A DNA stretch of 64,000 bases from Antedon mediterranea (lineage: Eukaryota > Animalia > Echinodermata): positions 11,075,888-11,139,887 of the forward strand of contig NC_092676.1 in the NCBI RefSeq assembly GCF_964355755.1, read 5' to 3'. Each line of letters begins with the position of its first letter. The stretch's first letter is position 1. Both the position numbers and the translations under genes were made by a program. Shown one piece after another: positions 4,994 to 63,875 of the stretch. Below the pieces are notes generated by a model. The model made no database searches and was not told the origin of the DNA. It saw only the letters and a program-made list of their open reading frames with translations.

Positions 4994-6014
4994 TCATTCA
5001 TTCATTCATCTTTTATTGCGGAAAAAAAAAATTCTCCATAGTTCAGCAACAAATTAGTGTACATTATTGCAAATATAACAAATACATATAAATATATATG
5101 TAGAGATATATATAAAAAAAACCTATGCTACATAGTCACAGTTAGAACAATAGATTCATCCATCTACTATGTAGATTGGATGAAGGAAAAGCAAATTCAT
5201 GAATACATTTTATGACAATATTGTCTGACCTCCCTAACCTGCACAACATGCCAAACACCACCTTACGTTGTAGTTCGTAGAACGAGCAGATGTGGTTTTC
5301 TACAAACATGGTGCTGGCACTGCATGACCTAGGTTTATTAAGGAGCAGGCGTAAGGCATTGTTGAAGCACACCTTTAGTGCTTCCATAGATTTTACATTA
5401 AAATTTGCCCACAAAGAAGCACAGTATAAGTTACTACAATATGTTTTAAACAAAAAACACTTTATGTTTTTAGAGCATTTTGAGAAAGTTCTACATAGTG
5501 TATTAGCTCTAATGCACAATGACCTGTACTGTCGTTTGATATCCGTATCATCTTTCAAATCGGGTGTCAACGTGTGACCCAAGTATTTAAAAACTCTAAA
5601 AAAGTCAAGTTCCGACTCAAATAAGTTTAAAGTGGGAAGCTTTGTCAATTTCCTGACTGTAGGACAGAATAACATACATACAGATTTTTTTCTTGTTATA
5701 CAATATATCATGCGTTAATGAGTATTTTTCACACATATGAATTAGATGTTGTAATGCGGAGGCAGATGGTGCAATAAGTACCATATCATCCGCGTAACTA
5801 AGGTTGTTTAGTTTTATACCTTGTAATTCGCATCCATTGCGAGACATACTGAGATTGACAATTAAATCATCCATATAAATATTAAAAAGTAAAGGAGACA
5901 TAACTCCACCTTGTCTAACACCATTGGTAACTGGGAAGTCTCTAGACAATGACTTTCTCCACCGAACATGAAACCTTTGATTGGTATACCAAGATACAAG
6001 AACTCTAACTACAC
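4994..6014 (-). mobile_element. 5'-truncated LINE (RT C-terminal half) nested in the endonuclease start of the 3070-7560 LINE
   Basis: 'GVRQGGVMSPLLFNIYMDDL...YADDMVL' and 'FKYLGH...LFKTYCSNLYCASLW', with a (TGAA)n tail at 4994-5008. Removing it restores the host frame, with a 2-bp AT overlap. Confidence 0.88.
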
Positions 6015-31146: not shown

Positions 31147-34100
31147 GTATACATCAGTGATCTTGGCTATGGTCCATTTTCCTCTTACGGCATTGGGATC
31201 TGCCAACATAACTACATCACCAACTCTTACATCTCTTTTTTGAACACTCCATTTCTTCCTCGGTACTAATAAAGGAAAAACGTCCCTCATCCAGGCTTTC
31301 CAAAAGGCATCGACCAACCTCTGCACGAACTCCACTCTTTTCTGAGGGTTCTTAGTTTCACGAAATGGACCTTGCGGCACATGACTAGAAGCCCTTCCCA
31401 GTAAGATGTCATTAGGACAAATATATGCACCGTCATCAGGATCGTTCGGCTTTCTACCAATAGGCCTCTCGTTTATTAAATTCGCCACCTCTTGCAAGTA
31501 AGTAAACAGCTCAAATGGAGTCAGACGTTGTTCACCCATTGACTTCTTTAGTGCGTGTTTACAAGTTTTGACGAGCGCCTTTGCACAGCCGTTGTGGTGT
31601 GGAGCTAATGGTGTCGTAAACCTCCAAGTGACTTGCTCTTCAGCGCAGTACTCCTTCAGCTTTATTGTGTCCCACCCGGCAACCATTTCCCTTAGCTCAC
31701 GCTCAGCTCCAATAAATTGCGTTCCGTTGTCACTCTGGATCAGTTTTGGACGTCCCCTAATAGCAAAAAAATCGTCTTAGCACCTGAATATATTCCTGAG
31801 TCGAACAGTCAACCACAAGCTCCAAATGAACAGCACGGGTCACTAGACAGGTGAAGATGACCCCATAATGCTTGGTCGTCTTGTTGCGGCCAACTTTGAC
31901 GTGGTATGGTCCAAAGTAGTCGCATGCAGTGTAGTGAAAGGGTGGTGTAAATGGTGTCACACGTTCTACCGGTAGTTCAGCCATAATCTGGGTTTCAGTT
32001 TTGTGCTCAAACACTCTACATGCTGTACATCTGAACTTGACAGTTTTCGCAAGAGTAGTTCCCTTAATAATCCAGAACTTTCGCCTTACTTTTGCAGCAG
32101 TCGTTGCGACGCCATAATGTCCGGTTTCATGTATTTGTCTTGTTAAAAGGTATGAGACAGGATGACATCTAGGGAGTAAAATGGGATAGGCTTGATCATA
32201 GGACAGTCTTTCGTTCCTAGTACGTCCTCCCACGTAAACAACACCATTCATCCTGAAAGGATTCAGAGACTTATATTCTTTCAGCTTCCTTAGTGACTTT
32301 TGCGCATCAATAACCCAATGTCGTTATGCTACCATTAGTTCATGTGAAGACAGCGCACCATCATCTACGCAGCATTTGGCTTTAGAATTCGTGATGAATC
32401 TAAAAACGTAAGCGGTAACTCTAACAAGTCTTCGCCAGCTTGAATACTTGTTACTGTTTATCGCTTCCTCGTGGTCTTGGACCAGCATGACAGTTTTCAC
32501 TTTTCTTTTCTCCAAGTCTACATCTGCTTCATTTGCCTTAGGAATGGATCTTGGCCATTCATTCTCTGCTAACTTAAGGAATGATGGACCTTCTTTCCAA
32601 TCGCCACTTAACTCGTCAACACTCACTCCTCTAGATATCTTGTCAGCTATGTTGAATTCTCCTGGAATGTGTCTCCAATCTGATGGGTTTATACTGACGT
32701 GATTGACCTCTTATCCAGGATAGAGCAATGATAGAATCCGACAGAAAGACAGCCTTCTTAAATTTCACAGACATTTCTTTGATCACCGACGCATACAGTC
32801 TAGTTGCTAACACAGCTGCCTGTAATTCCAGCCTTGGTACAGTCAAAGTTTTAAGCGGTGCAACGCGAGACTTCGCAGTCAGGAACCTTACACCAACTGA
32901 ACCATCAGGCATTATCCATCTCGTATAACAAACGGCACCGAATGCAGTCTCAGACGCATCGCAGAATATTACTAGTTGTAATTCAGCATCTGGTTCAGGA
33001 ATCAAGCATCTCATGAATTCAACACCATGCAAACTCTTCATTTCAGCAAAGAACTTAACCCAGTTGGCTTTCTCCGCAACACTCAACTCATCATCCCAAC
33101 CGACTCCAGTTGCCCAAAGACGCTGCATCATGATCTTAGCTCGAATTAAGAATGCACCTGCAAATCCGATAGGATCAAAGATCTTAGAAATTTTGCTTAA
33201 TACTGTTCGCTTAGTGACTTTAACATTAACATCGTCCTGCTCCATCTTGTACTTAAGCACATCTGTTCTTGGTTCCCATACAACCCCCAATACCTTTTGC
33301 TCATCCTTCTCAGTCATGACACTTTGTTCAGAATAATCCTGGTCACCGTGCAAATTAATGTTTGACACCCATTTCTTGACCTTAAACTTGGCGGTAGACA
33401 GAACTCTATCTATGTCCTTGGTAAGGTAGACAGCATTGGTTTCGTCTTTGACAGACGTGCAGATGTCGTCCATGTAGGTGTCTTTGCAAAGTGTATTCGC
33501 AGCTTGCGGATAGTTGGCTTCGTTTCCTTTGGCAGTTTTCAGGAGAGCAGTTATTGCCATGGCTGGCACTGGCTTGTCACCTGGCGTCACTATGGTCAGT
33601 ACATACGTGTCAGGAGTACGTTGTTCGAAATTTCTCCATAGAAATCGGTGCATGCGCATATCACTCAGTTGTATCTTCACTTGATAAAACATCTTGCTGA
33701 TGTCTCCCACAACGGCAACCTTAAATTCTCTAAACCTCATAATTACTCCCATGAAATTCTGTAACAGGTCAGGTCTTTTACTCCAGCAGTCGTTTAAGGA
33801 TACGCCCTGGTATACACTGGATGAGTTAAAAACAATTCTGATTGGTGTACTAGCATTTTCCTGTCTGACTACAGCATGATGCGGAATGAAATGCGCTGGC
33901 CCAGAATAATCATTCTTCTCCTTGATTGAGAGTTTTCTTGCAAATCCACGTTCAACTAGATCTTCAATAGCTTTGTTGTATTGACTTCCAGAAGTTGGTG
34001 TTTTTTGGAGACGTTTTTCTAACGAGCATAGCTTCGCGAAGCATTGTTTCTCATTGTTCGCCAGCGCTTCTGGGGGTTTAACCCAATGGTACGGCATCAT

Positions 34101-35020
34101 CCAACGACCATCTTCGCTCTTTGTGCACGAGTCCCACATCCTTGAGAATATCTTATTATCATCAGGCCTTAGTGACACATCCTCCTTTGTGCAGACACAG
34201 TGTGAAAGCTTTACCCCCATCTCTTCTGTGGCCCAACATTTTGAAATATCTACAGGTTCAGCTAACTTGACAAGCAGCATGGGGGTTTGTTGTTGCCTTG
34301 TTGACCCTCTGGCGTTTGTGCCAAACACAACCCATCCTAACAGAGACTTTCTTGTTACATAGTCACCCATAACTATACATATACCCGTGTGCATCTTCGC
34401 GTAGTTGACCCCTATCAAAATGTCAACATCATCGCTGCCTCTATGGATGGGCTCTCCCAGCTTCCCTTCGACTTCAGTTCGTAGGTTTTCACCAATCTCG
34501 GATACATCTGTAATGCTTGGTACCCCAACAGCACTTAAGGAGTGTAATGTCCCTTCCTTAGATGTGACGATGACGTTGTACACCCTGGTGTGAAGCAATG
34601 ATTTCTCAGAGCCAAGCGTCGTTATCTCAACTGTAATAGGCTTGCTTAGAAATTTGCACTTCTTGGCCAGATCATCTCTTATTAAGGTCAACGTGGCACA
34701 AGTATCAAACAGGATTTTGGAGTCTCTATTGGCTCTGAGAAATCATTGCTTCACACCAGGGTGTACAACGTCATCGTCACATCTAAGGAAGGGACATCAC
34801 ACTCCTTAAGTGCTGTTGGGGTACCAAGCATTACAGATGTATCCGAGATTGGTGAAAACCTACGAACTGCAGTCAGCATCGGCATGACGACATCTCCATC
34901 TTTACTTGAATCTAGATCAAGGGTCATCAGTTGTGTCGTCGACTTATGGGCGATATGCAACATTGGGTGGTGAAATTTATCACAATGTATACACTTCTTT
35001 CTTCGGCGGCAGTTTACCAT
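31147..35020 (-). pseudogene. BEL/Pao pol (protease, RT, RNase H, integrase), frameshifted; final codons at ~28620-28745
   Basis: 'ILFDTCAT' protease site (~34690-34715), 'GDISKMFYQV', 'YMDD', 'FCDASETAFGAV', 'KSRVAP..TVPRLEL', integrase 'H..GHYG..C..C', 'DYFGP', 'APHHNGC'. Confidence 0.93.
34475..34869. repeat. 141-bp inverted duplication (34475-34615 and 34729-34869) inside BEL pol
   Basis: Arms are reverse complements with one mismatch seen; spacer 113 bp. The peptide HTRVYNVIVTSKEG appears on both strands. Confidence 0.93.
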
Positions 35021-36336
35021 TGAGTGCTGCTTACCAGCCTAAAGCAAGCAAAGCATACATGACACTCCTTAGCTCGCTTCATCCTCTCTTCAGCAGGTAC
35101 CTGCAGCAGCACAGGGCACTGGTCTGGCCAATGGTCGTCTGTCTCGCATCTCCAGCACTTCTTCCATTTGGTAGATATCTTGTTTTCTGGGTTGACCATT
35201 GTCGCTTCTGTTTGCAACACGCGTCCAGTGGTCTTCTCACCGGGCTTCGACGGTTTGTAACTCTCTAGGGCAGTTCCGAACACTGGGTCACTCATTTCGC
35301 TTGCAGATGACCTTACAAATGTAACAACATCCTTTAAACATGGTATCCTATCCCTCTCTCGCATCTTGAAGACCTCGCGAGTCCATCTCTGTTGCAGAAA
35401 TTTAGGCAGTTTCCCTATTATTGTTTTTAGGCTTCCCTGGTTGTTTAGCTCTTGTAGGTATCCTAGGGCTTCCAGCGCTTGGAAACAATTGGTTAGGTCG
35501 TCAGCATAACCTTTGATTTTTGTAGGCTCTACCTTAGGCCTAGCTACTATTTCTCGAATCCAAGCCTGTACTATGGTTGAGCTGTTGCCGAACCGTTTCT
35601 TCAGGGTGGCCAAAGCAGATTCAAGGCCCTCAGCAGGCGGTTTAAGAACACAGAATTCAGTGGCGTCAAGTGCTCGGCCACAACATAAAGACCTTAGAAC
35701 ATTTAATTTTATACTTGGGTCAGTTATGCAGCTAACACTGTTATTAAAGGATGCGATAAATGTGTAGTAGTACAGCGCATCACCCTCAAACTTTCTTACG
35801 TGGGCTTTGGGTAGAGCCATGGCTTGCATCATACTTATTAGGCTATTCTCATGAGTCGTAATTAATTCTAAATTAACTTTCATAGCATCTACCTTTACAT
35901 CATTACCACTTTGGGTGTCTATGTTAACTACTGATTTATTAGATGCATTATCAATTGAATTTTCATTCGACTTATCTGTTGACCCGTCTATAACTTCAAT
36001 ATTTGCAGGGTTTACGTTAATGATCGGGGTCTTACCGACTGTAGCTAACACCTTTCTTGATACCCTTGTAACCTGGTTAAACTCTCTCACAACAAGTCCT
36101 AGCCACTCTTCTTCTTGCTCGATTTCCTCTTGTTCCTTAATAGCGTCGACCAGATTATCATGTGCAGCTTCCACAGCATCTAGACGAGTCTTGGACTTCT
36201 CCAGTAGCTGGCGTATCTGATCTGGTACAACGTCTTCTTCTTTTAACTCGGCCTTCAACTCGTTTAAGGCCATCGTCAACTTGTCCTTGCGAAGACCTCT
36301 GCTTCGTCTCAGTGATGCCAAATCCTGTGCCTCCAT
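35014..36336 (-). CDS. BEL/Pao gag (DUF1759-like region and Cys/His zinc knuckles), frameshifted at its C-terminus
   Basis: From MEAQDL: coiled-coil N-terminus, 'KFEGDALYY..F', 'LKKRFG', 'KLP', CxxC-x4-H-x4-C knuckle, then 'CFAC'. The third knuckle 'CIHCDKFHHPMLH' is in the next frame. Confidence 0.88.
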   Translation of the reverse strand: MEAQDLASLRRSRGLRKDKLTMALNELKAELKEEDVVPDQIRQLLEKSKTRLDAVEAAHDNLVDAIKEQEEIEQEEEWLGLVVREFNQVTRVSRKVLATVGKTPIINVNPANIEVIDGSTDKSNENSIDNASNKSVVNIDTQSGNDVKVDAMKVNLELITTHENSLISMMQAMALPKAHVRKFEGDALYYYTFIASFNNSVSCITDPSIKLNVLRSLCCGRALDATEFCVLKPPAEGLESALATLKKRFGNSSTIVQAWIREIVARPKVEPTKIKGYADDLTNCFQALEALGYLQELNNQGSLKTIIGKLPKFLQQRWTREVFKMRERDRIPCLKDVVTFVRSSASEMSDPVFGTALESYKPSKPGEKTTGRVLQTEATMVNPENKISTKWKKCWRCETDDHWPDQCPVLLQVPAEERMKRAKECHVCFACFRLVSSTQW

Positions 36337-36377
36337 AATTCTAGTTGGTTGCTGTTCCGAAAAAGTTAATTGAATTG

Positions 36378-37292
36378 TGGCGAGGCGAGGGATCGGCGCA
36401 GGCGCAGAGAGACTGTATTGAGATAAACTCCAGTGTAAGATACTAGATGAACTTTTATTCAATTCTAAAGAATCAAATCAGAAATGACAGTATCAGTAAA
36501 ACAGTAATGACAGTCTCACGAAAATTAACAGATTAAATTGTTACAATACTAATAATACACAACAAGTTAACTTACAACTTATCTCCCCAACACACATCAA
36601 ATCAGTTCAGTACAGTATACACATCAGAAAACATTCTGAATAGACAGAATTAAAATACAGTAAGTTTAAACAATGTAACCTAAAAAACAGCTTCGTAATT
36701 ACACTAAGCAAGATAACAAGCCTAATTACATCATTAGTCCTGCCAAATATCAATGCGCCACCAAACCACGGTGTTCTACCTCCAAACAAAGGAAATATCT
36801 CAAGCGCAATAAATTAGTTCTTACAAACAAACATTAAAGTCATCAACGTAACGGTAAACTTGACTTATATCTAATACGATAATTCAGTTATTGTAATTTA
36901 TCTAAGTTATGATCAATGTAGGCAAAAACTGCCCCACTACAGCGACAATTCTATACATACAGCAAGTCTGCCGATACGAGTGCAATAGCAAGCCGACCAT
37001 GTGAGCGTCGCTAATGATAAACACATGCTAGAGTGATCAACCTAAAATGTGCTCATAATTCGGTATACGTAATAAAATTACTTAATTACGAACAATCATG
37101 TGATTCTTAAATACTTACATATCATCATAATGACAATTATCAAACATCAGTTATGGTTTTAAATAGAAAAGCCCAGTAATTACATCAGAGAAACATTAGA
37201 CGTGTAGATGAATTCAGCAGAACATTCTGAATTGCCCACGCAATATAGCGCCCTCTCTGTTCAGATAAACAACTTAGTTTCTAAGCGAAACA
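36378..37292 (-). repeat. 5' LTR of the BEL/Pao element (915 bp)
   Basis: Minus strand begins TGTTTCGCTTAG and ends CCTCGCCA. AATAAA at ~36455-36460. Confidence 0.93.
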
Positions 37293-38469
37293 TATACTAT
37301 TGCTATATTGGTAGTTGCAGTGTGTGGTTGTTAAATCGTTGGCTTACTGTTACCATGGATTAAGGAATAGAAGGATATGCATCGACGGTGACAACAAACG
37401 ATTTTTCGTTTGCCTATACTAAAGCACTGCTGCCAATCAAACAAACACGCTCATTGAACTCCGTGTCTCTAACCGCGGCCCTCTATACAACGCTGCGAAT
37501 CAACTGTTACATTTTTAGAACAAAACGTAGCCATGTAGAAATCGTATGCGCAGACTGATTTTTCTATTGACATGTCTGCGTCGATGATTAATTGACAACA
37601 ATATATTGCTGAACAATTCTGTTTAATTTCATCACAATCGGACTACGAAAAGTTCACTTTCTTACGACTGGTAATTTTAAGTAGTTGGTAATAGTAATAA
37701 AATATGCAATTTTTATATTTGAATTATCATAGTGGCCTGCCACCTCCTGCCATTGAAAATTGTGTTAATCATCTATAGAATATTAGAATTATGCATTTGA
37801 CCATGTATGTTGTTACCGTGTCTTGTGGTCTCAAGTACAACAAACGTGTTTTTAATATATGGCTAAGCAGTGGTTTCTTCATAAATCTCCTTAATTATCG
37901 ATGTGATTATATTTAAATTGTAGTGCCTGGTGATTGGCTAGTCGTTATGTTATACACATCACATCCAATCACCGGGCCTAACTGAATAAAAACTGCGATC
38001 CCTGATCCGGGATTGGCTGGCTATGTATAGTTGCGATACGTCACCACTGACTCTACTACTCTCTAGCGCTCGTTTCGTTTTGAAAAGTAGACGCAAGGCA
38101 AACTTAACCATGAACAAACGAAGCATAAAAGTACCTTGTCTATTACTGATTATTATTCCCACAAGAAGTAGACAACGATGAGTATAGATCATGATTACAC
38201 GTTGTAGCTACTACACTTAAGATTAGCCAACCAATAGGCCTACCTATAGATGAGTGGAAATAGACTTTTCAGTCAAACAAATTGCAACAGTTTGTTTTTT
38301 TGCTGAAACATACTCAACTATATGTAGATATTATCATATCCAAAATCTACCCTGATCTGCCCATTATAAATTACCTAATTTGCATAAAATCAAAATGGCT
38401 GCCATTTTACAACTTTGATCCCAATTATCTCTTAAACCATAAAGAATTTGGTATAAGAATGTATTGAAC

Positions 38470-39600
38470 ACAAATATAAACATGACCCCAAAGATTCAGA
38501 ATAATATATTTGATTTGTCTTTGGGGTCAAGGTCAAAGGTCATTCCAGTTTGACATCTAAAATATGCTAATTATCTCTTAATCCATTAGGTATTTTGAAT
38601 AAGTGAGTCATATGGCCGAGCGGTTAAGGCAGGGGCGCCGTTTATCGTACCTAAAGAGCCAACAACAACATCGGCAAGGGTTAGAGGCCGACTCGCTCCT
38701 AGTTCTGGTGGTGGAACAAGTCTTCTCGGATAAGGACTATAAACCGTAGGTCCAGTGTACACAGTTATAACCTGTGTGTACTTTAAAGAACCCAGTTCAT
38801 TATTCGAAAAAGAGTAGGGGGTTACCCCGGTGAACTGGTTCACACAATAGCCTCTGTATCAGGGGGATTACCACCTATCTGATAGGACAGTGATTAATTC
38901 ACTATTGGTAATCCTTGGCCACAGTGCCTAAAGACATAAAATAAATAAATAAATAAATAATAAGAATGTATAAGTACAAATATAAATGTTACCCTAAAGA
39001 TTTAAAATAATGTATTTGATTTGTCTTTGGGGTCAAGGTCAAAGGTCATTCCAGTATGGCCTCTAAAATATGCTAATTATCTCTTAATCCATTAGGTATT
39101 TTGAATAAGAATGTTTAAATAATGTAAAATAAGACAACTCCCTGGTTTAACTATAGTACAAATATAGGCCTAAACATGACCCTAACGGTTTAGAATAATG
39201 TACAGTAATTGAGTTGTATTAGGGTTCAAGGTTCAAAAGGTTATCTAATTACACTATATAAAATTTGAAAATAACTCTCAAAACATCAGGTATTTTTAAC
39301 AAGAATGTATTTAATATAAATATGACCCTAAATATTCAGAATGATGCAATTGAGTTGTATATGGGGTCAAAGTCAAATGTCATCTAATTATGCCATATAA
39401 AATATGCTAATTATCTCTCAAAACATCAGGTATTTTTAACAAGAATGTATTTAATATAAATATGACCCTAAATATTCAGAAAGATGCAATTGAGTTGTAT
39501 GGGGTCAAAGTAAAATGTCATCTAATTATGCCATATAAAATATGCTAATTATCTCTCAAAACATCAGGTATTTTGAACAAGAATGTATTTAATAGAAATA
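38470..39600. repeat. ~120-bp degenerate tandem repeat array in the left part of the Academ-like element
   Basis: Recurring ATGACCC...GGGGTCAAGGTCAAAGGTCAT...ATATGCTAATTATCTCT...GGTATTTT..AAGAATGTAT units, with mirror units at 42500-42770. Confidence 0.85.
38604..38957 (+). mobile_element. tRNA-derived SINE (MetaSINE-like core) inserted in the left TIR
   Basis: A-box-like TGGCCGAGCGGTTAAGG, core GGATAAGGACTATAAACCGTAGGTCC...AAGAGTAGGGGGTTACCCCGGTG, (AAAT)n tail, TSD approximately AATAAG. Absent from the right TIR. Confidence 0.8.
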
Positions 39601-39612
39601 TACATAATAATA

Positions 39613-41114
39613 GTTTTCCCCGACCTTTGGAAAAGGGCTACTGCAGTTCCCATTCCTAAAACAGTGAATGCTAGTTCTGTCTCTGACCTTAGACCTATTT
39701 CCCTTACCTATGTTCTTGCCAGGGTATTTGAATCTTTTATTGTTAAGTGGATTCTTGAAGATATTAAGGGTAAATTAGATTCTCGTCAATTTGGTAGTAG
39801 GAAAAAGGCTTCCTCAACTCACTATCTTGTTAGTCTTATTGACTCTACACTCAAAGATGTTGAGAAGGGTAAATGTTATGTTAACCTATGTGCCACTGAC
39901 TTTACTAAAGCTTTTGATCGTGTTGATCATAATTTTATTATTATAAAGTTGATTGAACTGGGTGTGAGGTCGTCCATAATTCCCATCGTCTGCAGCTTTC
40001 TCACTTCCCGTTCTCTCAACACCAAGTTTGCTGGGATTTTGTGTCATCTTCAAAGTCACTGACTTGTGGTGTCCCACAGGGGACATTGCTTGGCCCTGTA
40101 CTTTTCCTAGTACTTATTAACGATGCTTGTGTTGATTGCTGCAGACGATGGAAATATGTGGATGACCTCACCCTTGGGGAGGTCGTTCGCAAAGGTGATT
40201 TGCCTTCCATGCAATCCCTGTTAGATGATCTGAGTGTTTGGTGTTCATCCAATAATATGATACCCAAACCCTCCAAATGCCATATCTTGGTTGTCAATTT
40301 TCTTAAGGACAAGTCGGATGATATTATATCGCCTTCTTTTAGTCTGAGTGGTTCCATTTTACAAGTAGTTGATCACATGACGCTTCTTGGTGTAATCATT
40401 CAAAATGACCTGAAATGGGAACTTAACACTAATAATATTGTGTCTAGAGCTTCTAGACGTTTATTTTCCTTGTGCATTTTGAAGAAAGCAGGAATCTTAA
40501 TTAATGATCTGTTGACTGTTTATATGGCGTATATAAGACCTATTTTAGAATATGCTGCCCCTGTTTGGCATGGCGCTATCACTAAGGACATGTCCAAGTC
40601 TATTGAAAAGGTACAAAAGAGAGCATTGCGTATCATGCTAGGTAACAACTATTTGTGCTATGATCATGCATTGTCTGTTACTGGTTTACCTACTCTTGTA
40701 GAGAGAAGAAACAAACTTGTGTTGTCTTTCGGGGAAGGCTTATTAAAATCCGAGCTGTTTAGAGAAATACTTCCCCCTCTTCATAAGCCAGCTCGGTCTC
40801 TCAGAGTCAACCGCTTTCTTGAAGTACCTCATTGTAAAACCAGCAGACTTAGGTCGTCTCCAGTTCCCACCATGGTGGATATAATTAATAGGCACCACTA
40901 GCTCTTTTTTAGATATGTAATAAGTGAATGTTTTAAGGTTTTTTATTCATGTATGTTTTTAATTGTATGGTACGATATCTAATTTTATTAAGATGTTTCT
41001 ATTTTTATAGCAATTTTAACTAATTTTTAGTCATTTGTAATACATTTCATTTCAGTCCTTGACTGTCGTTTTGTAATATATTTTTATATACCGAATAAAT
41101 AAATAAAAAAAAAA
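39613..41114 (+). mobile_element. 5'-truncated LINE (RT, one frameshift) nested in the Academ-like element
   Basis: 'FPDLWKRA..LRPISLT..DFTKAFD' and 'GVPQGTLLGP..KYVDD..YIRPILEYAAPVW'. AATAAA and poly-A at 41094-41115. Approximately AATAATA on both flanks. Confidence 0.9.
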
Positions 41115-43094
41115 ATAATATGTTCTTATGATTTGCATTTGATTTGTATTGGGTCAAGATAAAATGTCATTATCTTACAATATAAAATACTCTAATTATG
41201 AAGTGAATTCATTTCAATTTGGTTGGGGATGTACTTATGAACAACTCATATCTATTTTGAAAATCTGATTTGAGTTAACTTCAGGGATCAGACTATTAGG
41301 AAAGGTGTTTTAATTGTAAGGAATTACATTTATTATATTTGGGTTTTTTTTAGATTATAGTACACTATGCTAAAATATGTCACACAAAAACTGTCAATCC
41401 TGGCTGGTTGTGTGAAGTGTTTAAACTGAAATTATGGGAAAGTGTGGAAACACCTTTACCCTTACAAAATTTGTAACTGTGAAAATGGAGGTCATGTGGT
41501 TCAAGCAGTTACCGACCACTTGAAACAGTAAAACCTGACCCTAACATTGGGAAAAGTTAAGTTGTACTAACCAAAGTGGGTGCAGTATTAAGAATACAGA
41601 GACTATGTGAACTAAAAATCTTTAGAACAAGTGTCTATAGTTTACTTTAGTATAAGAACGAGTCCTCTGCTCTCAAATGACACAAATATAAAGATACATT
41701 AAAAAAAAATTAGAATCTTTCGTAACACCCTAAATTTTTAAGTTTGAGATGGATGAAAATTAAATAAAATCCAGCCATTAAAAACAAGTGTAGTTTGTAT
41801 TCATATTTAAATACCCTTAGTGTATGTTAAAATTTATCTAAACACAAACATTTTAAAGTATCAGTATATATTAGGATTAAGTAACAGTATTTATTAATAC
41901 TTTTATTAGCAAAATGATGCTTCAATTGAGAATGTAATGAATACAGTAAGACAGTAAGTCATTGTGATACTTACTAAAGTATACTTTAACAAAACTAGTT
42001 CTTTGCAACTGTTGTTGCTTAGTTTAACTGTAGATAATTTGATAAAAAAAAAATTATAGATGATGATAAATTACTAATTATCAGAAAGCTAAGTTTATTG
42101 GTCTACTCTGACGTAATTTTACTGAATTCTCAGAGAACCGAGAATTGTCCAAAGTATGGCAAAAACATCTTAAAAAGTAACTCCATTGACGATCGAGTCC
42201 GACCCAAGAATTATTTAGACATTTTTGTGACCAATGTTTCAGAAATGTAAGGTTATAAGCTTCGTAGGTCTACTAAAGTAGGTATGCCTAAATGTAAAAG
42301 TAAATGTCAAAATAAGCTATACTGTATGGTATAAAGTAAATGACCTACTGATACTATGTAAATTTAGTAGTTATAATATTTATAAATAAACAATTTTTTC
42401 AAAATTGACCTAGTAATCTCTGGGTGGGCGCAGTGTGCAGACATCAATCTGCTGCAATGTCTGTACTGTATATGCTATGTTTTTAGTAGTAGTAAGACTA
42501 GGATAATTAGAATTTTTTTATATTGTGACCTTTGACCCAGTGACCCCAGGGTAAGATTAAAAATCAAATGTGCTATTCTGAATCTTAAGGGTCATGTTTA
42601 TATTTGTACTTATACATTCTTATTCAAAATACCTAATGGATTAAGAGATAATTAGCATATTTTAGATGTCAAACTGAAATGACCTTTGACCTTGACCCCA
42701 AAGACAAATCAAATATATTATTCTGAATCTTTGGGGTCATGTTTATATTTGTGTTCAATACATTCTTATACCAAATTCTTTATGGTTTAAGAGATAATTG
42801 GGATCAAAGTTGTAAAATGGCAGCCATTTTGATTTTATGCAAATCAGGTAATTTATAATGGGCAGATCAGGGTAGATTTTGGATATGATAATATCTACAT
42901 ATAGTTGAGCATATTTAAGCAAAAAAACAAACTGTTGCAATTTGTTTGACTCAACGCCTATTTTTCATCTATTTCCACTCATCTACTAGGCCTATATCAT
43001 TGTCGGCAAATCATAGGGTTTACTAGTAAGCCTAGAAGGCCTTGGCCTACTATCCTTGCTGATTTTGTAATTTTAAATGTAGGCTGAGACAACA

Positions 43095-52600: not shown

Positions 52601-55600
52601 GCAGTTAACGTTGCAAGATGCAGTTAGATTAGATTGGTCTTTCATGAGCGTTCTGTAGAAAAAGTTCATTAATAACTATTGAAATCCATTAAATACTTAT
52701 GGACAGTTTTATTTTTGTAGGAAAGATCTAAAATACCGATAAATAAGTTATATTTTAGTACGCATTATATTAAAAATACTATTGGAAACATATAACTTCA
52801 GATCCGGAAAAGATGTCCTATTATGGGAAATTTGTTCCAGTAATTTACCATTCATGTTAATGTTAGAAACTTGTCTTTTAAAATCTGAATTAGATATTGT
52901 ATTTACATATAGTTATTGTAAGGCATTTGGCGCTAAAAATATGGTGGTTCAGAAATACGAATCTCAGTGTTTTTTTCTAGAAATTGTATTCGTTGTCAAT
53001 TAACCGTTCCGGAAAACGATAACAAACTTATTCACTTATTAAATAACACACAGGTAGTATGGGAGGTGTTCGCTTACAAGCGATTCCACAAATAAACATC
53101 AGATGGAGCAGTATAACCCAGTTTTGGCTACTGATGGATACTGATGTCCCGTTATGTGTGGAGGGTTGAACATGTTTGTCGTAGATACCCATAATAATTA
53201 ATGTTTTAAGAAACATACTTTAAGTACATCATTATTCAAATAATATGTTTTCTATGATTTACATAAGGACTTGTCTTGCTGACATTAGGCTGTTAATATT
53301 ACAAACTGTGTATTTTACCCATTGCCATAATATGATTGATTGATTCCAGCTACAAGTTCTTGGGGACAAGAAATAAGTAACATAAATGCAATTAAGATAG
53401 TTGCCGTTGTATTGAGCATGCAGAATTTAAGTTTTCCAGGGACTTTTAGGTTCAATCTCTTGACTAAATATCCACCAAACACGGTACCACCTCCTGCAGC
53501 TGGAACGGCAGCTATACCTGGAAGAAAATGTTCAAAAATATGTATGTATTTAAATCGTATATTAGGTGAACTTGTTTATACCTCTTTTTCCGGTGGTGTT
53601 AGTGGTAGGTACCTACCTACAAGTGCTGCTGCTCTACCGGCTGTCTGAACAAATTGGTTTTCGACAAACTTTGGCATGAATGTTGCAAAGCCACTAAGAA
53701 CCAGACCTTCAGAGCAAGCTGCTATGGTATTAAACATGAAAGTAGGATTGGTAACAAGATACTTGATTGCTTTTGGAAAATCTTTTGCAGATGAACCAAA
53801 TCCTTCACGGGTAGTTTCTTCTTCCTTACTATCTGCATGTGCTTCAGATACCTTTTCAGCCCGGATTTTTTCAGTTGCTTCAGAAGAGAGAATATATTAT
53901 ACTGTCATTAAAATTACCAAATTAATAATTAATTCCATTGCAACAATGGTTTGACATTATTCATAAATATGTGTTACTGCTATAAGTGTAACACTAAGAA
54001 CTAAACTTACTCGGCAACTCTCTAGGAAAACCACTTAATGGTAAGGCCGCAAGGAAAGCCAACACACCTCCAAGTAGGAAACCAATCCACCAGGCACCAA
54101 CCCAAGCCGGGTCTCCAGGTTCAATTTCAAGACTGCAACAATATGTTTACAAATTTATTAGACAAATTTCATTATAGTACATTTTCTCATTTAGTAACAA
54201 AACCATGAGAATCGATCATTTGAACAAATGCAATGATTTACCCCAACGATTGTACTGTTTTCTGAGGGTCTAGTTATCAGCTTTGGGTGAATGGACGACC
54301 CTCATATTGTTGAAATAAATAAATATTACTGTTATGATTATTATATCGTTAATATACAAAAAACAATAACAAGGAACGTAACGTAAACAGAGAATTCCCG
54401 TTGTATTCAATGTGGTGCCGGCCTATTTATTTTTGTTTTGCAAAATCATATTTATATAAGATGCGCTACGTTCTTTGTATTATACAGTTATTTAATTTAT
54501 TTATGATGTCTACGATTAGTTATGATGATATTCAATATTAAATAATACGAATATGATAATTAGATGATTTTATTGTTGATGATTTTTGGTTGATGGCGAT
54601 AGCGATGATCATGTTGTGGATAAATGTATTATCTTGACATTGTGCAAACTAACTCTTCATCACTATTTCGGTTGAAGTCTGTATAAAATCCGAGTGTGTA
54701 CCCTCCGATAAGGTATCCAATGGATGGTCCTATGATACTAGAACCATAAAATATTCCTGTAAACCAATAGAAATAATAATTGATGATTAGTACCACCGGT
54801 AAATCTGCTGTTTGTAATAATCGTTGGTTATATGTATTCCCATGTCATATTTGTAATAATTGTAGTATTTTTTTTTATGTCTGTCGCATTTGTAACAAAC
54901 TTATCGTATGACACATTAAATAAATAAAAAGTTATTACAAAAGTGAGATATGCATTACAAAGTGAGACAGACCGACGATGATCAATCATTGATTTTGATG
55001 ACCGGTAGATACCTTAAGAATAGTTTTCATTACTATTTTTAACGAATAGGCCTAGTGGTTGATATAATGTTTTGCGACGACCATTGTTAGCGAAATTAAC
55101 CATTTGTTATGATTACCTGGGCGTACCCAAACTAAATATAATAACACATTTGTTTGTCAAGATGTTTATTTTGAATTACCAATTCATTTCATAATCTCAC
55201 CTAAATAAAGACCTGATTGTCTTGCTGTTACGCTCTCATCCATCAATGCTGTTCCTAGAGTATATAAGGGCACAGCTCCAGTACCATGCAAAAGCTGCGC
55301 AAAAATAAACACGTAGATATAGTTTGAAAGCTTTGAGTCTGTGTTCTGATCACAATCTTGTTCGTACGGATCTCCACATAGAACCGATTCCGTTCCAACC
55401 ACTGGCTCATACTTGCCTGTAGTAAAGTGAGGTAGTGCAAAAATAAACGATCCTGTACCCATTATCAATAATCCTATTGCAAGCCATTGCGGTTTGTGAC
55501 CCCTTCCTCCAACATAAGTTACAAACAGTACAAGAACTGCGCATGCAAGGTCATATGAACTCGCAATGAATCCTGCATTTCTACTTGGCATCTCAAAACG

Positions 55601-55924
55601 TCTCTCAATCGTTGTATAACTAACGTTTGTAAAACCATTGATCACCATTCCCTGAACGGCAGTAAACAAACATAATGAAAAAAGCAACCACTTTGCGTTA
55701 TTAAATCCTTGAAGCCAAGGTGGACGACACCTGAACCATCCCCAGCTCAATTCTTCATTCTCAGAGGTATGCTCACATTCCTTCTCTGGGCTTTTGTCCT
55801 TTCCTGTAGACGTTGACGGCTCCTCCTCATCATTCATTGGTGGTTTTGCAAAATCCGTTGATCCATGAGCATTTACTGAGATATCTTCAATATCCGTGTC
55901 TTGCGTATCGTATGGTGCGGTCAT
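49652..55924 (-). CDS. SLCO4: Organic anion transporting polypeptide (OATP/SLCO, SLCO4-like), 9 coding exons: 55201-55924, 54654-54756, 54011-54132, 53617-53877, 53319-53517, 52502-52652, 51972-52144, 51293-51357, 49652-49968 (2115 nt, 704 aa)
   Basis: All introns are GT-AG with compatible phases, and the exon sum is divisible by 3. Motifs: 'TTIERRF', OATP signature 'DPAWVGAWWIGF', Kazal-like 'CNVNCGC...FSPVCGSNGIEYFDPCHAGC', 'GTIPGPILFG..ID.SCLMW...CG.KGSCWLY'. Subfamily assigned by recognition only. Confidence 0.93.
49996..51200 (-). pseudogene. Degenerate LINE (Rex1/Babar-like RT) in the last SLCO intron
   Basis: 'DYSSAFNTI' (~51075-51100), 'TGTPQGCVLSPLLFSIY', 'KFADD', 'HKYLGVWID', 'RHTFSFLPSAIRLYN', with a (TCTGA)n tail at ~49996-50017. 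Confidence 0.85.
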
Positions 55925-56203
55925 ATCTATAATTTCAATTAATTAATTATTTGGTCATTTTATAAAATAGAACACACCATACGAAACAATTAGTTGACGA
56001 CCCAATGTGTGCAATTAACCTCCGGTGTTTTGATGGACGAACTGTATTGATGTATTTATGCCTTCTACAGTTGAACTAAATTGGAATGTTTCCAATAATT
56101 ATTTAGTTTAGTAGCATATCGTATTATACTAGTTAGAGGAGTTTAAGAGTGTACATGTTAACATTCATTACGTATGGTGATATTCTTGGGTTCTATTAGT
56201 TAA

Positions 56204-58108: not shown

Positions 58109-60658
58109 TTAATAATTGAGCTGGACTGGGAAGAGATTGACTAACTGGTGAAGAAGTGCAAGTTCATAATCGGTTGACGATTGTTTAGCTTTCTTTAATA
58201 TTGATTTTACCGTCCGTATTTGACGTTCGATGTACCCATTACCTTGGGGTCGTCTGGGTGAAGAAGTTGTATGATCGAAACTCCAGGCTTTAGCAAATTC
58301 TTTGAACACGAAACTGGAAAAATGCGGGCCATTATCGCTTACAACTTTAGATGGAACGCCATGTTTGCCAAATACTTGCTTGAAAACATCGATGACGACT
58401 CTGCTTGGACTAGATTCAGGTAGTTTGCGAATGATCGGATACTTCGAGTAATAGTCAGATATAATTAGCCATTGATGATCGTCGAACGTAAACAAATCAG
58501 CTCCAAGTACGCTCCATGGTTTAGTTGGTATGTCATGTTGCAGGAGAGGCTCGGACATTTGTGATGGTTGGTGCTGTTGACATATAGAGCATGATTGAAC
58601 TAATTGGTCAATGTTTTTATTGATGTTCGGCCAAAATACAGTGTCCTTAGCAAGTAGTTTTGTTTTTTCTTGACCAAGGTGGGCGGTATGTAATTGTAGC
58701 AGTATATCACGTTGCATAGTTGAGGGTATTACGATGCGTTGAGCTTTAAGCACAAGGCCGTTGTCGGTTGACATCTCGTCTCTGTAACTCCAATATGGTC
58801 GCATATCTGTTGGTAACTGTTTGATGTTTTCCGGCCAACCATTGGTGATGATGCCTTTAAGTTGGTTTAGGATTGGGTTTTCGGTGGTTTGTTGTTGAAG
58901 TTGAGTTACTTTTTTTGTGGAGAAACGAACAAGATCAACACGTACATCCAAATCAATGATTTGATTATTATTCATATTAGGCAAACGTGATAAGCCATCG
59001 GCAAGTTGATTTTTGACTCCTGGTAAATGTTCAATAGTAAAATTATATCCTTGTAATCTGATCAGCATCCGTTGTAATCTAGGAGGTGCAGATGTTAGTG
59101 TTTATTTGTTATCATTATCAATGGCTTATGATCCGTAATAACGTGGAAACTTCGTCCAAATAAAAAGGTGTGAAATCGTTGTACTCCAAATACAATGGAT
59201 AATAGTTCTCGCTCGATACATGCATAACGTTGTTCAGTGTCTGTAAGGCTTTTACTTGCATAAGTAATTGGTTTGAGTTGATCGTTACAATCATATTGTA
59301 ACAGTGTTGCCCCTAATCCACGTATGCTTGCGTCGCATTGAAGGATGACAGGTTTGTTTACATCATAATATTGTAGTAACGTTGTTTCGGAAACTTCGCG
59401 TTTTAAAGCTTCAAATGCTTTTGCATGATGTGTTTCCCAAAGGAACTCAACGTCCTTCTTAAGTAGATCTCTCAACACTGTTGTTTTCGTGCTGAAGTCT
59501 TTAATGAAACACGAGAGGTAAGTCATAGTTCCAAGAAATTGTTGAAGTTCTGTTTTTTTTTGTAGGCTCAGGCATAGCTCTTAAGTCTTGAACTTTCTTG
59601 GGGTCTGGTTTAATTCCCTTATTGGTATAAACGTTACCAAAGAATGTTATATTATCTTGTTTGATGTGACATTTGGTCGAGTTTAAAACGAGGCCGGTTT
59701 GTTCTGCAACTTTCATGAAGTTAATCAGGTTAGCATCATGTTCTTGTTCAGTGGAACCAAATACTGCTATGTCGTCTGCAATTCCACAAACACCTTTGCA
59801 TTTTCCCAATGATTCGATCCATCTCAAGCTGAAATATATCCTGGCTCACAGACAATCCGAAAGGCAAACGCTGGAAGCAATAGCGTCCAAAGGGTGTTTG
59901 GAAAGTGGTAAGTTTCTGGCTGTCGTGATCTAACTTTACTGACCAATAACCAGCTTTGGCATCGAGTTTGGAAAAAAACTTTGCGTTGGCGAATCTATGA
60001 TTTATTTCTTCAAGTGTCGGAATTCTGTGTTGCGGACGGACAAGTGCCATGTTTAAATATTTAGGGTCCAAACAAACACGAATGCTACCATCTGTTTTTG
60101 TCACATACGTTAGTGAACTTACCCACTCTGTTGGCTCTTCAATTGGCTTTATGATATTTAACTGCTCCATCTTTGAAAGTTCAGCCTTTATCATTTCCTT
60201 TAAAGCAATAGGTGTACGTCTCGGTGCATGCATTCGATTGGGAACGTTAGGATCAACAACAAGCTTGTGTATCGTTTTGAATTCACCAATACGATCAAAC
60301 TGGTCAGGGTAAAGTTTAATAAGTTCTTCGATGTTATTAACTACGGGATTGTATTTGGTTGGTATGTTGTTGATATTACAGTGCAGTGTTACAATGCGGA
60401 GTTGTTCGCATGTTGGAAGACCGATTACAGCTGGGCCTGGAACATCAACAACAAAAAATGTGGTATTCAACCATGTAGAGTTCTCGTAACAGCAATGTAT
60501 TCTTGTTGTACCAAAACATTTTATTTTTGTATCGTTGTAAGCCGTCAAAACGTTCTGCGTGGCTTCCAATGCATTTGGTTGTGGGTAGCCTTTTGTATTC
60601 AAATTGTACGGGAACATGTGACGGTATGTTCTAAGTGGGAGCGTGTTTGCTTGTGCGC
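58109..60658 (-). pseudogene. Gypsy pol (protease C-terminal part, RT, RNase H, integrase) in four frameshifted pieces
   Basis: 'KLDAKAGYW', 'RLPFGL', 'IADD', 'CDAS..GLGA', 'TDHKPL', 'H..HLG..C..C', 'SDNGP', 'QGNGYIER'. Confidence 0.92.
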
Positions 60659-62808
60659 CACATTCATTTAGACTAGACAAAAAGTAGTGAGCCCTCTAGC
60701 GGTCATTTGTGATTTCTGAGATTCATCGAAGCGCGACAACATCACCCGGAAATGATGTGAATTTAAAATTTTAATAGGGTTAAACTCTTTTAACCAATTG
60801 AAAGCCTTAAATTATAGTTCCTTATGAATAATTCATGACAATAATTAAAGCAAGGGTTGAAGAAGCATGTGACTTGGTTTTTGGAACAGGATAGCAGTTA
60901 TGATCGTGTCAGGTAATCATTGAATTTGCTCTTCTTTTTGTTAGATTTTATACGGTTTTTATCAATAATAATATTGTACATTTTTACGAGACCATAAAAA
61001 AATTCCTCAATTTTTGAGTAAACGAGTGACTAAATAAAAAGTTACTATGTAATGTAAATATTCGTTTGACAAAAAATGGGCATGTTGATATTTTCAGGTA
61101 TTTTTTAAATGGCGATTTAAATAGGTAAACAAATCACATGTATAACGGTGGTTTGTGCGAAGCTGGGCCTAGCCTTGATGGTCCAACGCGTACTGTGTGT
61201 TAATCAATGCGTATAGATACACACGTAGTCGTTTAGGCCAATTTTTTACATGTTTATTTATTAATATTAGGCCCCATTCTCATTTATTTTAATTAATGTA
61301 CTGAATGTACCACACTTTACAACTCTATATAAATTAGATTTTGTACTTGTATTAAATTCAAACGTTTTATGGGATTTAAAACATTAAGCTAGGCCTCGTA
61401 GTAGGCCTAGGACCACATGTTAGGTTTTTCAGCCTAATTTATCATGCAGTATACCTCTAGCCCATCTTTCAAATACATATTTAAATTAAGATACTTTTTA
61501 TATTTCTATATTTTTTATAGGATCTGACTCCAGAAAACATGTGCATCACTTGAAAGCGGCTATTTATGGACAGCATGTTGACATTCAAAAAAATTTGACC
61601 AGCTCTTATTAATTAAATGTCTTTTAAATTAAAGGTTTTCATTATAATGAAATGTACGGTGACAGAAATTTAAATGATTCTCATAATTGAGGTTTCTCAT
61701 AGATTTAATATTGAAGGTAAATAAATAAAGCTGTTTGTTATTCTTGCCTTTAGAAATAAACATGTTGTTAGTACTATATTATTAGGCCTAGGCCATTATA
61801 CAAATTAAAACTAAAAAATACAATAATCATATTTAAGGCCTACACAGCAGTACCTTACTTGATTTGATTTTTTTCAAATATTTAATTGATGAAATAAATG
61901 AGTTTGACTTTTCAATTAGTTGCCATTTTATTAGTTTCTGTGTGTTTTTATTTATATTCTTAAAATAATTGTATACAACAACTTTAAAGTATTGCGAAGA
62001 AGTGATCAAATTATAGTAGGCCTATTTGTATGTTATTGTCGCTTAAAATTATGCAGTTAAAGTATTTGATTTTAGGGTGACAGAAACGGTTAGGCAAGAA
62101 AAGAAATAAATTTGGGAATTTTGTTATGCGGTAAAAACAATTAAACATAATTTACCCCTAATGCATGTAAATGTAGAAAACATTGCTTATGTTAGCGCGA
62201 CCGAAACTCGCTACTGGGAATAGAGCCTGCAAAAGCGACGCGTACACACCTACTCGGGCACCGGCGGAGCGCGATCGAAAGTAAATATACCCGATTTCAA
62301 ATGATCATAAAATTCTTTTAAAAAATATCAACATTTTGATTTTTTGAGGATTAAAAGTAAAGATATTGAAATTTAACATGCTATTTACAAATATGTATTT
62401 AAAAATTCGGAAACAATTTTAGCGTGATATTAAAACAAACTTTTTAGAGTTCCGCGATTTCCTACGCAGGATTTGTTTGTTTTCATTGTTAATGGGCGAA
62501 TGTTACCTAAACTAGAATCGTTATAAATCTTTTAAATTTGTATTATAAGTAATTTCTTTAGTATTCTTAGTAACATCGAATGTCTCTAATTAACTAGCAG
62601 TTATTTATACTAACTATTGTTCAATAATAAGCGTGTATGAAGTGAAAATCTATAGTAATAATGTTCTTAGTCAGTTCGTCTCGCTCGCGTGAAGTCTTCG
62701 GGTTTCTCAATACAATTCTCAGCGGTAAGATAGGCTCGCGCTAATGTTTAAATCAAAAGCGCTCTCAAAACACTTTTTGTCCAAAATTCGCAATATGACG
62801 TGAGTGTG
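60659..62808. mobile_element. 2150-bp non-coding DNA element with asymmetric RSS-like termini (RAG-like/Transib or Chapaev type)
   Basis: Left end CACATTC-11 bp-ACAAAAAGT; right end (reverse complement) CACACTC-21 bp-ACAAAAAGT. TSD GCGC at 60655-60658 and 62809-62812. Removal restores the Gypsy protease 'KVDTGA|QANTL'. Confidence 0.85.
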
Positions 62809-63875
62809 GCGCCAGTATCAACTTTTAATTGTAAGTTATGCGTGCCTGGTCTGCCGTCAAGTTTTACTTTGAGATTTGCGAAAGCTTCGTCTCGGGGTTT
62901 CGGTCCGTCTTGGAAACAGAAACTGGATACTTGTATAGAGGAGAAAGAAAATGATTCAAATTGCGTATTCATGCAATCAGTATCGTTATCATCAGTATGC
63001 GTCTGTTCAGACTGTTCCAAATAATGTACATTTCTATTATATCCATAAGGGCGGTTGCGTTGGTATCCACCCCGTTGTCTTGGGGATTGACCCCGTCGGT
63101 AACGTTGGTGGTTTTGAGCATAATTAGTTCTATATTTTGGTCGACTACGATGATCTTTAAATTTACTGGTTAGACAAAACTTAGCCCAATGGCCATTCTT
63201 ACCACATGCTCTACATACGTCATCACGAGCAGGACAGTCCTGACGGTCTAAACGGTGATCTGTGCCACAATTCCTACATTTTTGTTGTTGGTAGAATAGT
63301 GATGAAACGTTAGCGATTTGTCCTTGCCCATGCATAGATTGTAGTTCACTTATATGGGCGGCGGAGGCTTCGTAACTCCGACCAAGTTTGAGCGCGTCTT
63401 GAACATTAAATCCTTTTGGTTTGTTCATTAGATCTTTCTGTAATTCCGGTATGGGAGTACTGGCAATTATCTGCTCTATCAATCGCTCATTCAATTCACT
63501 ATCGTTAAAATCACGTTTCAGAGCAAGCAATTTGCATCGGTTAATAAACTCATCCAACGACTCCCCTTGTTTTTGTGTGTATTTCCTTAGCTTCAATCGA
63601 CAAATACGAAAGTTTTCTGAAGGTTCTAATTGCTCAAGAAATTTCTTGAAAATAGTAGCTGGCTCCTTTCGCTGCTCTTCCGTTAATGTCCATGTATTAT
63701 ATCTGCGAAGACCTTCTTCGCCTACGGCAAGAAGTATCAAAGGGACTTGTCGATCTGCGTCTGTACCTTTGACTTGGAAATATAATTCAACACGTTGTTG
63801 AAATAACTTAAACGAATCTGCCGCATTTGGCGAGCTCCAATCAAAACGTGGAACGTGTTCAGTCATTGTTGACAC
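62809..63875 (-). CDS. Gypsy gag plus the N-terminal part of the protease
   Basis: 'Q.QGESLDEFINR', zinc knuckles 'CRNCGTDH..CPA...CRACGKNGHWAKFC', an Arg/Gln-rich tract, then 'LKVDTGA'. Confidence 0.92.

What the first reader, a model, noticed from the sequence alone, without database searches (positions are those of the whole stretch)
60659..62808. Transposon with asymmetric V(D)J-RSS-like ends (11/21 spacers) inserted in a Gypsy protease
Seen in sequence: the insert has no continuous TIR. The left end is CACATTC + 11-bp spacer + ACAAAAAGT (60659-60685). The right end, read inward, is CACACTC + 21-bp spacer + ACAAAAAGT (62808-62772). The spacers are unrelated in sequence and differ by 10 bp, about one helical turn. 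The insert is flanked by a GC-rich GCGC duplication, and removing it restores DTGAQAN. Established: vertebrate RSSs are CACAGTG-12/23-ACAAAAACC, and RAG1/2 descend from Transib/RAG-like transposons, some of which occur in echinoderms, hemichordates and amphioxus. Inference: this is a non-autonomous member of a RAG-like family with an '11/21 rule' and a near-canonical nonamer (7/9 identity), mobile after the Gypsy inserted. Caveat: RAG/Transib usually make 5-bp TSDs, whereas CAC termini with a 4-bp TSD fit Chapaev. RSS-like asymmetry in a Chapaev element would also be notable.
Basis: partly seen in the sequence, partly recalled or inferred. Interest (0 to 1): 0.9.

Follow-up and report, generated by a model that had tools for sequence, protein, structure and literature searches.

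The report
Gene-less transposon with short/long ends
This is a real, multi-copy, gene-less jumping element whose two ends carry the same short signal one DNA turn apart, resembling antibody-gene recombination signals; it is likely moved by a Chapaev-type enzyme only distantly related to RAG, and uneven ends of this kind are already published for RAG's closer transposon relatives.

Summary
Confirmed. A 2,150-bp insert (60659-62808) has CAC ends, a GCGC duplication and a shared 10-mer (GACAAAAAGT) at 18 bp from one end and 28 bp from the other (chance about 0.001-0.003). Public contigs show the empty site, other flanks at the same boundaries, and the same 11/21 ends in the family majority, so the offset is not a private indel. 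The element has no transposase remnant; contigs show a spliced leader running from the short end. The partner enzyme was not found. The 4-bp duplication fits Chapaev and misses the 5-bp rule of Transib and RAG-like elements, although a 5-bp duplication with one lost C cannot be fully excluded. Ends uneven by about one helical turn are in print for Transib (2005), Aureococcus RAGL (2022) and Ptychodera RAGL-A (2023); I found no paper describing them for Chapaev. The likeness to the RSS nonamer is modest: eight other sites in this window match as well. A minor related right end has the A-tract moved about 3 bp, which argues against a strict rule. Verdict: real, a variant of a known design, RAG kinship unproven.

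The parts
60655..60658 (.). left target-site duplication GCGC
   Evidence: empty-site joint in X1 and X5
60659..60665 (+). left (5') terminal heptamer CACATTC
   Evidence: an X5 contig and a diverged X1 relative both start at 60659
60666..60676 (+). 11-bp spacer (its last G is part of the shared 10-mer)
60677..60685 (+). left subterminal A-tract motif ACAAAAAGT
60888..60912 (+). first leader exon (start inferred from one contig with an adapter-like 5' end)
   Evidence: X7 record 21; joint also in X5
60913..61520 (+). GT..AG intron, 608 bp
   Evidence: joint 60910>61519 (cut +2) in X5 and X7, not listed for X1 or X6; splice sites read
61521..61915 (+). second leader exon; internal donor after 61716 where three X5 contigs leave for sequence absent from this copy; AATAAA at 61893 and A-tail after 61915 in X7
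60900..61612 (+). 34-codon ORF across the splice; no homologue, likely an upstream ORF or chance
   Evidence: the searches used the 40-aa genomic frame that holds its exon-2 part
62192..62744 (.). imperfect inner inverted repeat (62192-62221 / 62715-62744, 70%) in CpG-rich DNA; role unknown
62772..62780 (-). right subterminal A-tract motif ACAAAAAGT
62781..62801 (-). 21-bp spacer
62802..62808 (-). right (3') terminal heptamer CACACTC
   Evidence: four X1 contigs and one X5 contig leave into other flanks at 62808
62809..62812 (.). right target-site duplication GCGC
58112..63863 (-). host Gypsy-type LTR retroelement (gag-like ORF, protease split by the insert, RT, integrase); further breaks in pol
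   Evidence: RVT_1, rve, Integrase_H2C2; the gag-protease side had no Pfam hit, so its naming rests on the CCHC and DTG motifs

Best explanation
It is a multi-copy, non-autonomous cut-and-paste DNA transposon with a short end and a long end, likely moved in trans by a Chapaev-type DDE transposase of the CACTA-Mirage-Chapaev-Transib clan. Shown: boundaries, 4-bp duplication, empty site, other flanks, the same 11/21 ends in the family majority, no coding remnant, a spliced leader from the short end. Inferred: the element is an internal deletion of a parent that kept the ends, promoter and two leader exons but lost the coding exons. The transposase would grip each end twice, at the terminal CACA(T/C)TC by its catalytic core and at the GACAAAAAGT A-tract by a separate DNA-binding domain. 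The 10-bp offset would keep the inner site on the same helical face but one turn further out, so that a dimer would favour pairing one short with one long end, as RAG does with 12/23. It would cut at CAC and insert with a 4-bp stagger into GC-rich targets.
For: CAC..GTG termini with a 3-4-bp duplication are the stated hallmarks of Chapaev (PMC4079192, passages); Transib is 5 bp against 2-4 bp for CMC (bioRxiv 2026.08.26.747230, passages); protostome RAGL duplications are 'invariably 5 bp' (PMC7204232, passages). Position 60659 belongs to the element: an X5 contig and a diverged X1 relative begin there. No difference at 5% share or more is listed in 60659-60685 or 62782-62808 for X1 or X5 (places near contig ends are not listed). 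Element contigs in X1 have depth 380-440, against 63 for the Gypsy flank and 9-11 for single diverged relatives: an indication of tens of copies, not a count. This copy differs from the majority at 12 substitutions and 3 indels in 2150 bp, 0.7%, so the family is young. An X1 relative aligns without gaps from 60659 with 25 differences in 149 bp; 19 lie in 60712-60777, so at most 6 in the first 53 bp, and the 11-bp spacing is kept (post hoc Fisher p 0.0007 to 0.024 depending on where the six lie). The leader runs from the short end, the polarity given for asymmetric Transibs (PMC1131882, Fig. 4C legend).
Against: No transposase was found, so the family rests on end features, which vary even within Transib (3-bp and TA duplications). 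Only this copy's duplication could be measured. A 5-bp GCGCC duplication with one C lost gives the same letters, and all 3 indels of this copy shorten a homopolymer. Only 3 of 625 runs in 60200-63300 are shortened (about 0.5%), against about 17% for a C following by chance, so 4 bp is favoured by roughly 30 to 1 before priors (my estimate). RAG itself leaves 4-bp duplications in a minority of events, up to 28% in one assay. A minor right-end variant in both X1 (depth 11.3) and X5 (6.08) changes the motif and moves the A-tract about 3 bp towards the end (my reading of the difference tables); another relative (depth 9.44) matches inward only up to 62777 and then leaves. The positions of the left relative's six unlisted differences are not visible, so its motif is not verified. 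I found no published Chapaev end sequences with this layout to compare.
Confidence: 0.45

Rival explanations
1. It is a miniature derivative of a Transib or RAG1L-RAG2L transposon, recognised through a nonamer-binding domain like that of RAG1, and this copy's 4-bp duplication is a minority event or a lost C.
For: Heptamer 5/7 and nonamer 7/9 to the RSS consensus; only 34 of 1325 CAC sites in the window have such a nonamer at RSS-like spacers, 2.6%. PflRAGL-A ends have the same 10-bp asymmetry and, by my count on the ends printed in its supplement, their AT-rich block lies at about the same distance, with the 5' end the shorter. GC-rich target. Asymmetric ends are the rule in Subgroup I Transibs.
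Against: 4-bp duplication; no TR2 block next to the heptamer, unlike RAGL-A and RAGL-B; no RAG1L, RAG2L or Transib motif in six frames; no inward-running second transcript seen from the right end (weak, contigs only); no match of these ends in the supplements searched (two files were cut when stored, and figures are not held).
Confidence: 0.33
2. The parent enzyme is of another kind (for example P-like or an unnamed lineage), and the likeness to RSS is convergent: a terminal site plus an A-tract site in helical phase.
For: RSS-like sites of equal quality arise eight more times in this 64 kb. Unchecked notes from other genomes report RSS-like ends on elements with P-like enzymes (e1-9089250, e1-7275726; leads only).
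Against: CAC..GTG with a short GC-rich duplication fits the CMCT clan, described as CA..TG with 2-5-bp duplications (PMC12730594, passages). P elements leave 8-bp duplications (recalled).
Confidence: 0.12
3. The enzyme is CMCT-type but the 10-bp offset is a frozen indel in the family's founder, tolerated rather than required.
For: The family is young (0.7%), so its identical ends have one origin. The minor right-end variant has a different offset.
Against: The spacers are unrelated along their whole length, not identical except for one indel; the diverged relative keeps the left spacing; the offset equals one turn, as in PflRAGL-A.
Confidence: 0.1

Closest known systems
Chapaev transposons (Kapitonov and Jurka 2007, not held; described in PMC4079192, PMC4411706, PMC3014272, passages read)
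   Same: CAC..GTG termini, 4-bp duplication, animal host, non-autonomous derivatives common.
   Different: No transposase here. Bipartite ends uneven by one turn were not found described for Chapaev. The Chapaev3 ends I could see are short terminal repeats with TWA duplications.
Asymmetric Transib families: Transib5, Transib2_AG, TransibN1-N3_AG (PMC1131882, passages); Subgroup I Transibs (PMC9435367, passages)
   Same: CAC heptamer, variable spacer, A-rich nonamer-like block, short 5' end and long 3' end, GC-rich target, non-autonomous members.
   Different: Transib duplications are canonically 5 bp; heptamer consensus CACAATG against CACA(T/C)TC here; spacers near 12/23 against 11/21.
PflRAGL-A of Ptychodera flava (PMC10629977, passages and supplement passages)
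   Same: 10-bp asymmetry, AT-rich nonamer-like block at about the same distance from the ends, GC-rich target.
   Different: It has a conserved TR2 block, 5-bp duplications and RAG1L-RAG2L genes; this element has none of these, and its inner motif is closer to the RSS nonamer.
Vertebrate 12/23 RSS
   Same: CAC heptamer (5/7), nonamer (7/9), unrelated spacers differing by about one turn.
   Different: Spacers 11/21, not 12/23; 21 lies outside 23 +/- 1, and such shortening is reported to cut RAG recombination sharply (PMC7753069, passages citing Akira 1987 and Steen 1997).

Membership tests
Chapaev | [quoted passage not shown] | tested here: met
   boundaries confirmed by other flanks
Chapaev | 3-4-bp target-site duplication | tested here: met
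   GCGC, 1 copy only; a 5-bp reading with a lost C is disfavoured but not excluded
Chapaev | Chapaev DDE transposase, with or without Chapa zinc finger, in the parent | not testable with these tools
   no coding remnant; no genome held
Transib | CAC heptamer plus A-rich nonamer-like block | tested here: met
   against PMC1131882
Transib | 5-bp target-site duplication | tested here: not met
   4 bp in this copy; the feature is not invariant in Transib
Transib | GC-rich target | tested here: met
   GCGC in a 33% GC window; flanks of three other copies seen singly end in GC, begin with GCG, and begin with ATAT
Transib | Transib transposase in the parent | not testable with these tools
   parent not found
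RAGL (RAG1L-RAG2L) transposons | RAG1L and RAG2L genes or remnants between the ends | tested here: not met
   longest ATG ORF 45 codons; none of the CRxCG, CCGHC or GRP motifs; gene-less RAGL derivatives exist, so this does not exclude descent
RAGL (RAG1L-RAG2L) transposons | 5-bp target-site duplication | tested here: not met
RAGL (RAG1L-RAG2L) transposons | conserved TR2 block next to the heptamer | tested here: not met
   4 of 11 identical
RAGL (RAG1L-RAG2L) transposons | bipartite ends with about 10-bp asymmetry (family A) | tested here: met
V(D)J 12/23 RSS pair | spacers 12 +/- 1 and 23 +/- 1 | tested here: not met
   11 is within, 21 is outside
V(D)J 12/23 RSS pair | coupled cleavage that requires one short and one long signal | not testable with these tools
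   needs the enzyme and an assay

The most novel reading that the evidence does not exclude
The parent is a missing-link RAG1-like transposase that has dropped TR2 recognition, reads a near-canonical RSS nonamer through a RAG-type nonamer-binding domain and enforces an 11/21 rule: an active invertebrate transposon working by the vertebrate recognition logic, or proof that a 12/23-like rule reaches back to the common ancestor of Chapaev and RAG.
Probability: 0.15. Interest if true: 0.8.

Novelty: new variant of a known kind. Interest (0 to 1): 0.42.

Why it matters
The origin of the 12/23 rule is debated (RAGL-A ends against a 'Transib seed'). A young family with unrelated spacers, no TR2 and a near-RSS nonamer would be a clean natural substrate for asking which transposase domain imposes short/long pairing. 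If the enzyme is Chapaev, the design predates the Transib-RAG line. Without the enzyme it is one more gene-less element with a known style of end.

Tried and rejected
No second copy lies in the window. A viral-contig scan gave 5 loci, none with a partner end, and one 26-bp interior match at E 0.002, treated as chance. Coding remnant: none by motif scan, Pfam (0 of 4 short frames), ESM Atlas or homologue search; Rfam none. A host OATP exon search did not fix the phylum; the host is an animal by inference from its genes and repeats. No RNA holder is listed on record among the 13 runs. Horizontal transfer to organisms B and C was considered and not claimed: X6 holds near-identical pieces at depth 2.4-2.8 beside contigs at 17-35, and X7 one contig, which carry-over explains as well. 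Duplication lengths of other copies could not be read, because loose ends at one place are merged and the tables are cut (20 of 48 loose-end rows; 40 of 60 difference rows, 6 of 26 loose ends and 8 of 54 pieces). Yuan and Wessler 2011 is not held. Searches of earlier findings by place and by sequence were empty.

Full report
Observation. The insert spans 60659-62808 (2150 bp, 31% GC). Its left end reads CACATTC, 11 bp, ACAAAAAGT; its right end read inward reads CACACTC, 21 bp, ACAAAAAGT; GCGC flanks both sides. The exact shared word is 10 bp, at positions 18 and 28 from the ends. Such a word turns up in 0.1-0.3% of random pairs from this window, so the bipartite end is real. The spacers are unrelated (4 of 11 and 3 of 11 identical from either side). 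The insert lies in the protease motif of a minus-strand Gypsy element.

It is a mobile family. No genome is held, so I used public runs: 13 rows from 5 studies hold the stretch or part of it, 5 rows from 2 studies with half or more of its words. I laid 4 of the 13 and one of them again; all are contigs. In X1 and X5 a contig joins 60654 to 62809, the empty site. Its depth (63 in X1, against 9-11 for low-copy contigs) suggests sister Gypsy copies rather than necessarily the allele of this locus; either way the insertion is younger than the Gypsy. Four X1 contigs and one X5 contig leave at 62808 into other flanks, and an X5 contig and a diverged X1 relative begin at 60659. Element depth in X1 is 380-440. 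Depth is no copy number, but it points to tens of copies. This copy differs from the majority by 12 substitutions and 3 indels (0.7%), none listed within the two end signals. X1 may be the source sample and is not independent support; X5 is another study.

Is 11/21 conserved? In the family majority, yes. One relative (depth 9.33) aligns without gaps from the first base: 25 differences in 149 bp, 19 of them in 60712-60777, so the terminal 53 bp carry at most 6 and keep the short spacing (post hoc p 0.0007-0.024). Against this, a minor right end in both samples alters the motif and shifts the A-tract about 3 bp towards the terminus, and another relative matches only up to 62777. These may be dead copies or sister families; the tables are cut and do not pair left with right ends.

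What is inside. There is no transposase remnant: the longest ATG ORF is 45 codons, no Chapa, CCGHC or GRP motif, no Pfam, Atlas or homologue hit. A GT..AG joint (60913-61520) stands in X5 and X7. The one X7 contig starts at 60888 behind letters that I recognise, from recall, as a template-switch adapter, and ends in an A-tail 17 bp after AATAAA. Three X5 contigs leave at a donor after 61716 for sequence that this copy lacks. Contigs cannot prove a start or a strand, and neither run is on record as RNA, so this is suggestive. My inference is a 5' leader kept from a parent whose coding exons are gone, although splicing into flanking host exons fits too. It places the short end at 5'.

Which enzyme. 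CAC..GTG with 3-4-bp duplications is the Chapaev hallmark; Transib and RAGL give 5 bp. One ambiguity matters: the target is GCGCC, so a 5-bp duplication with one C lost reads the same, and this copy's three indels all shorten homopolymers. The rate is 3 of 625 runs against a 17% chance of a C, so 4 bp is favoured about 30 to 1 on my estimate. Duplication length is also labile within Transib, and RAG gives 4 bp in a minority of events. I put Chapaev with functional short/long pairing at 0.45, Transib or RAGL at 0.33, another enzyme at 0.12, and a non-functional offset at 0.10.

Mechanism. Inferred, by analogy with RAG, whose nonamer-binding dimer pivots to take a 12 and a 23 signal, and with ProtoRAG, which works better on its asymmetric pair: the core would cut at CAC, a second domain would hold the A-tract, and a one-turn offset would favour one short plus one long end in the synapse.

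Comparison with print. Heptamer-spacer-nonamer ends with a short 5' and a long 3' spacer were described for five Transib families in 2005, for all Subgroup I Transibs and Aureococcus RAGL in 2022, and with a 10-bp difference for Ptychodera RAGL-A in 2023. So the design is known. What differs here is the combination: 4-bp duplication, no TR2, unrelated spacers and a nonamer 7/9 like the RSS. The RSS likeness is itself modest: 2.6% of CAC sites in the window have such a nonamer at RSS-like spacing, and 8 other sites match as well as the ends do. Searches for Chapaev with asymmetric and RSS (0 papers), with nonamer (2 papers, neither on Chapaev ends in the passages read) and for Chapaev transposons found no description of uneven Chapaev ends. 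Repbase Reports, most subscription journals and all figures were out of reach. Unchecked notes from this scan report Chapaev elements with long/short ends in two other genomes, and RSS-like ends with P-like enzymes in two more; these are leads, not support, and they reduce the weight that this case carries alone.

Papers seen. Passages of PMC10629977, PMC7204232, PMC4411706, PMC1131882, PMC12730594, PMC8355894, PMC3014272, PMC4079192, PMC9435367, PMC3630058, PMC8289069, PMC7753069, bioRxiv 100735, 2026.08.26.747230 and 2026.01.24.700457; supplement passages of PMC10629977, PMC7204232, PMC4411706 and PMC9435367 (30 of 49 places for 'TIR'). None was read whole. Supplements of the bioRxiv papers were not seen; Table S2 of the Transib preprint may bear on duplication lengths.

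Verdict. A real, young, gene-less transposon family with short/long bipartite ends; probably Chapaev-driven, RAG kinship unproven, rule untested. New variant of a known kind; interest 0.42.

Noticed in passing
window 5420-5458: A near-consensus 23-RSS (CACAGTA-23-ACAAAAAAC) lies on the opposite strand inside a LINE-like ORF; probably chance, and a useful control for RSS-likeness.
   Followed up: partly
window 61717-61718: Three X5 contigs splice or branch here into at least two different sequences absent from this copy; one could be the parent's first coding exon, or host exons captured at other insertion sites.
   Followed up: partly
window 61925-62214 and 62331, 62615: Depth steps and loose ends inside the element suggest nested or shared repeats and sub-variants.
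   Followed up: no
window about 38300-42920: Imperfect inverted repeats of about 40 bp, 4.6 kb apart, enclosing RT-like ORFs; possibly another DNA transposon with a nested LINE.
   Followed up: no
window 31051-36477: BEL/Pao-type LTR retroelement in several broken ORFs on the minus strand (named from recall of its motifs).
   Followed up: no
window 55184-55942 and 1326-2027: Host exons: an OATP/SLCO transporter (PF03137 relatives) and a thrombospondin-repeat-like protein (named from recall).
   Followed up: partly
runs X6 and X7 (organisms B and C): Near-identical pieces of the element at low depth under two other organism labels; carry-over is likely, transfer is not excluded.
   Followed up: no
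window 16100-16150 and 19850-19900: Low-complexity TAGGCCTA/TAGTACTA palindromic arrays, a motif that also recurs inside the element.
   Followed up: no
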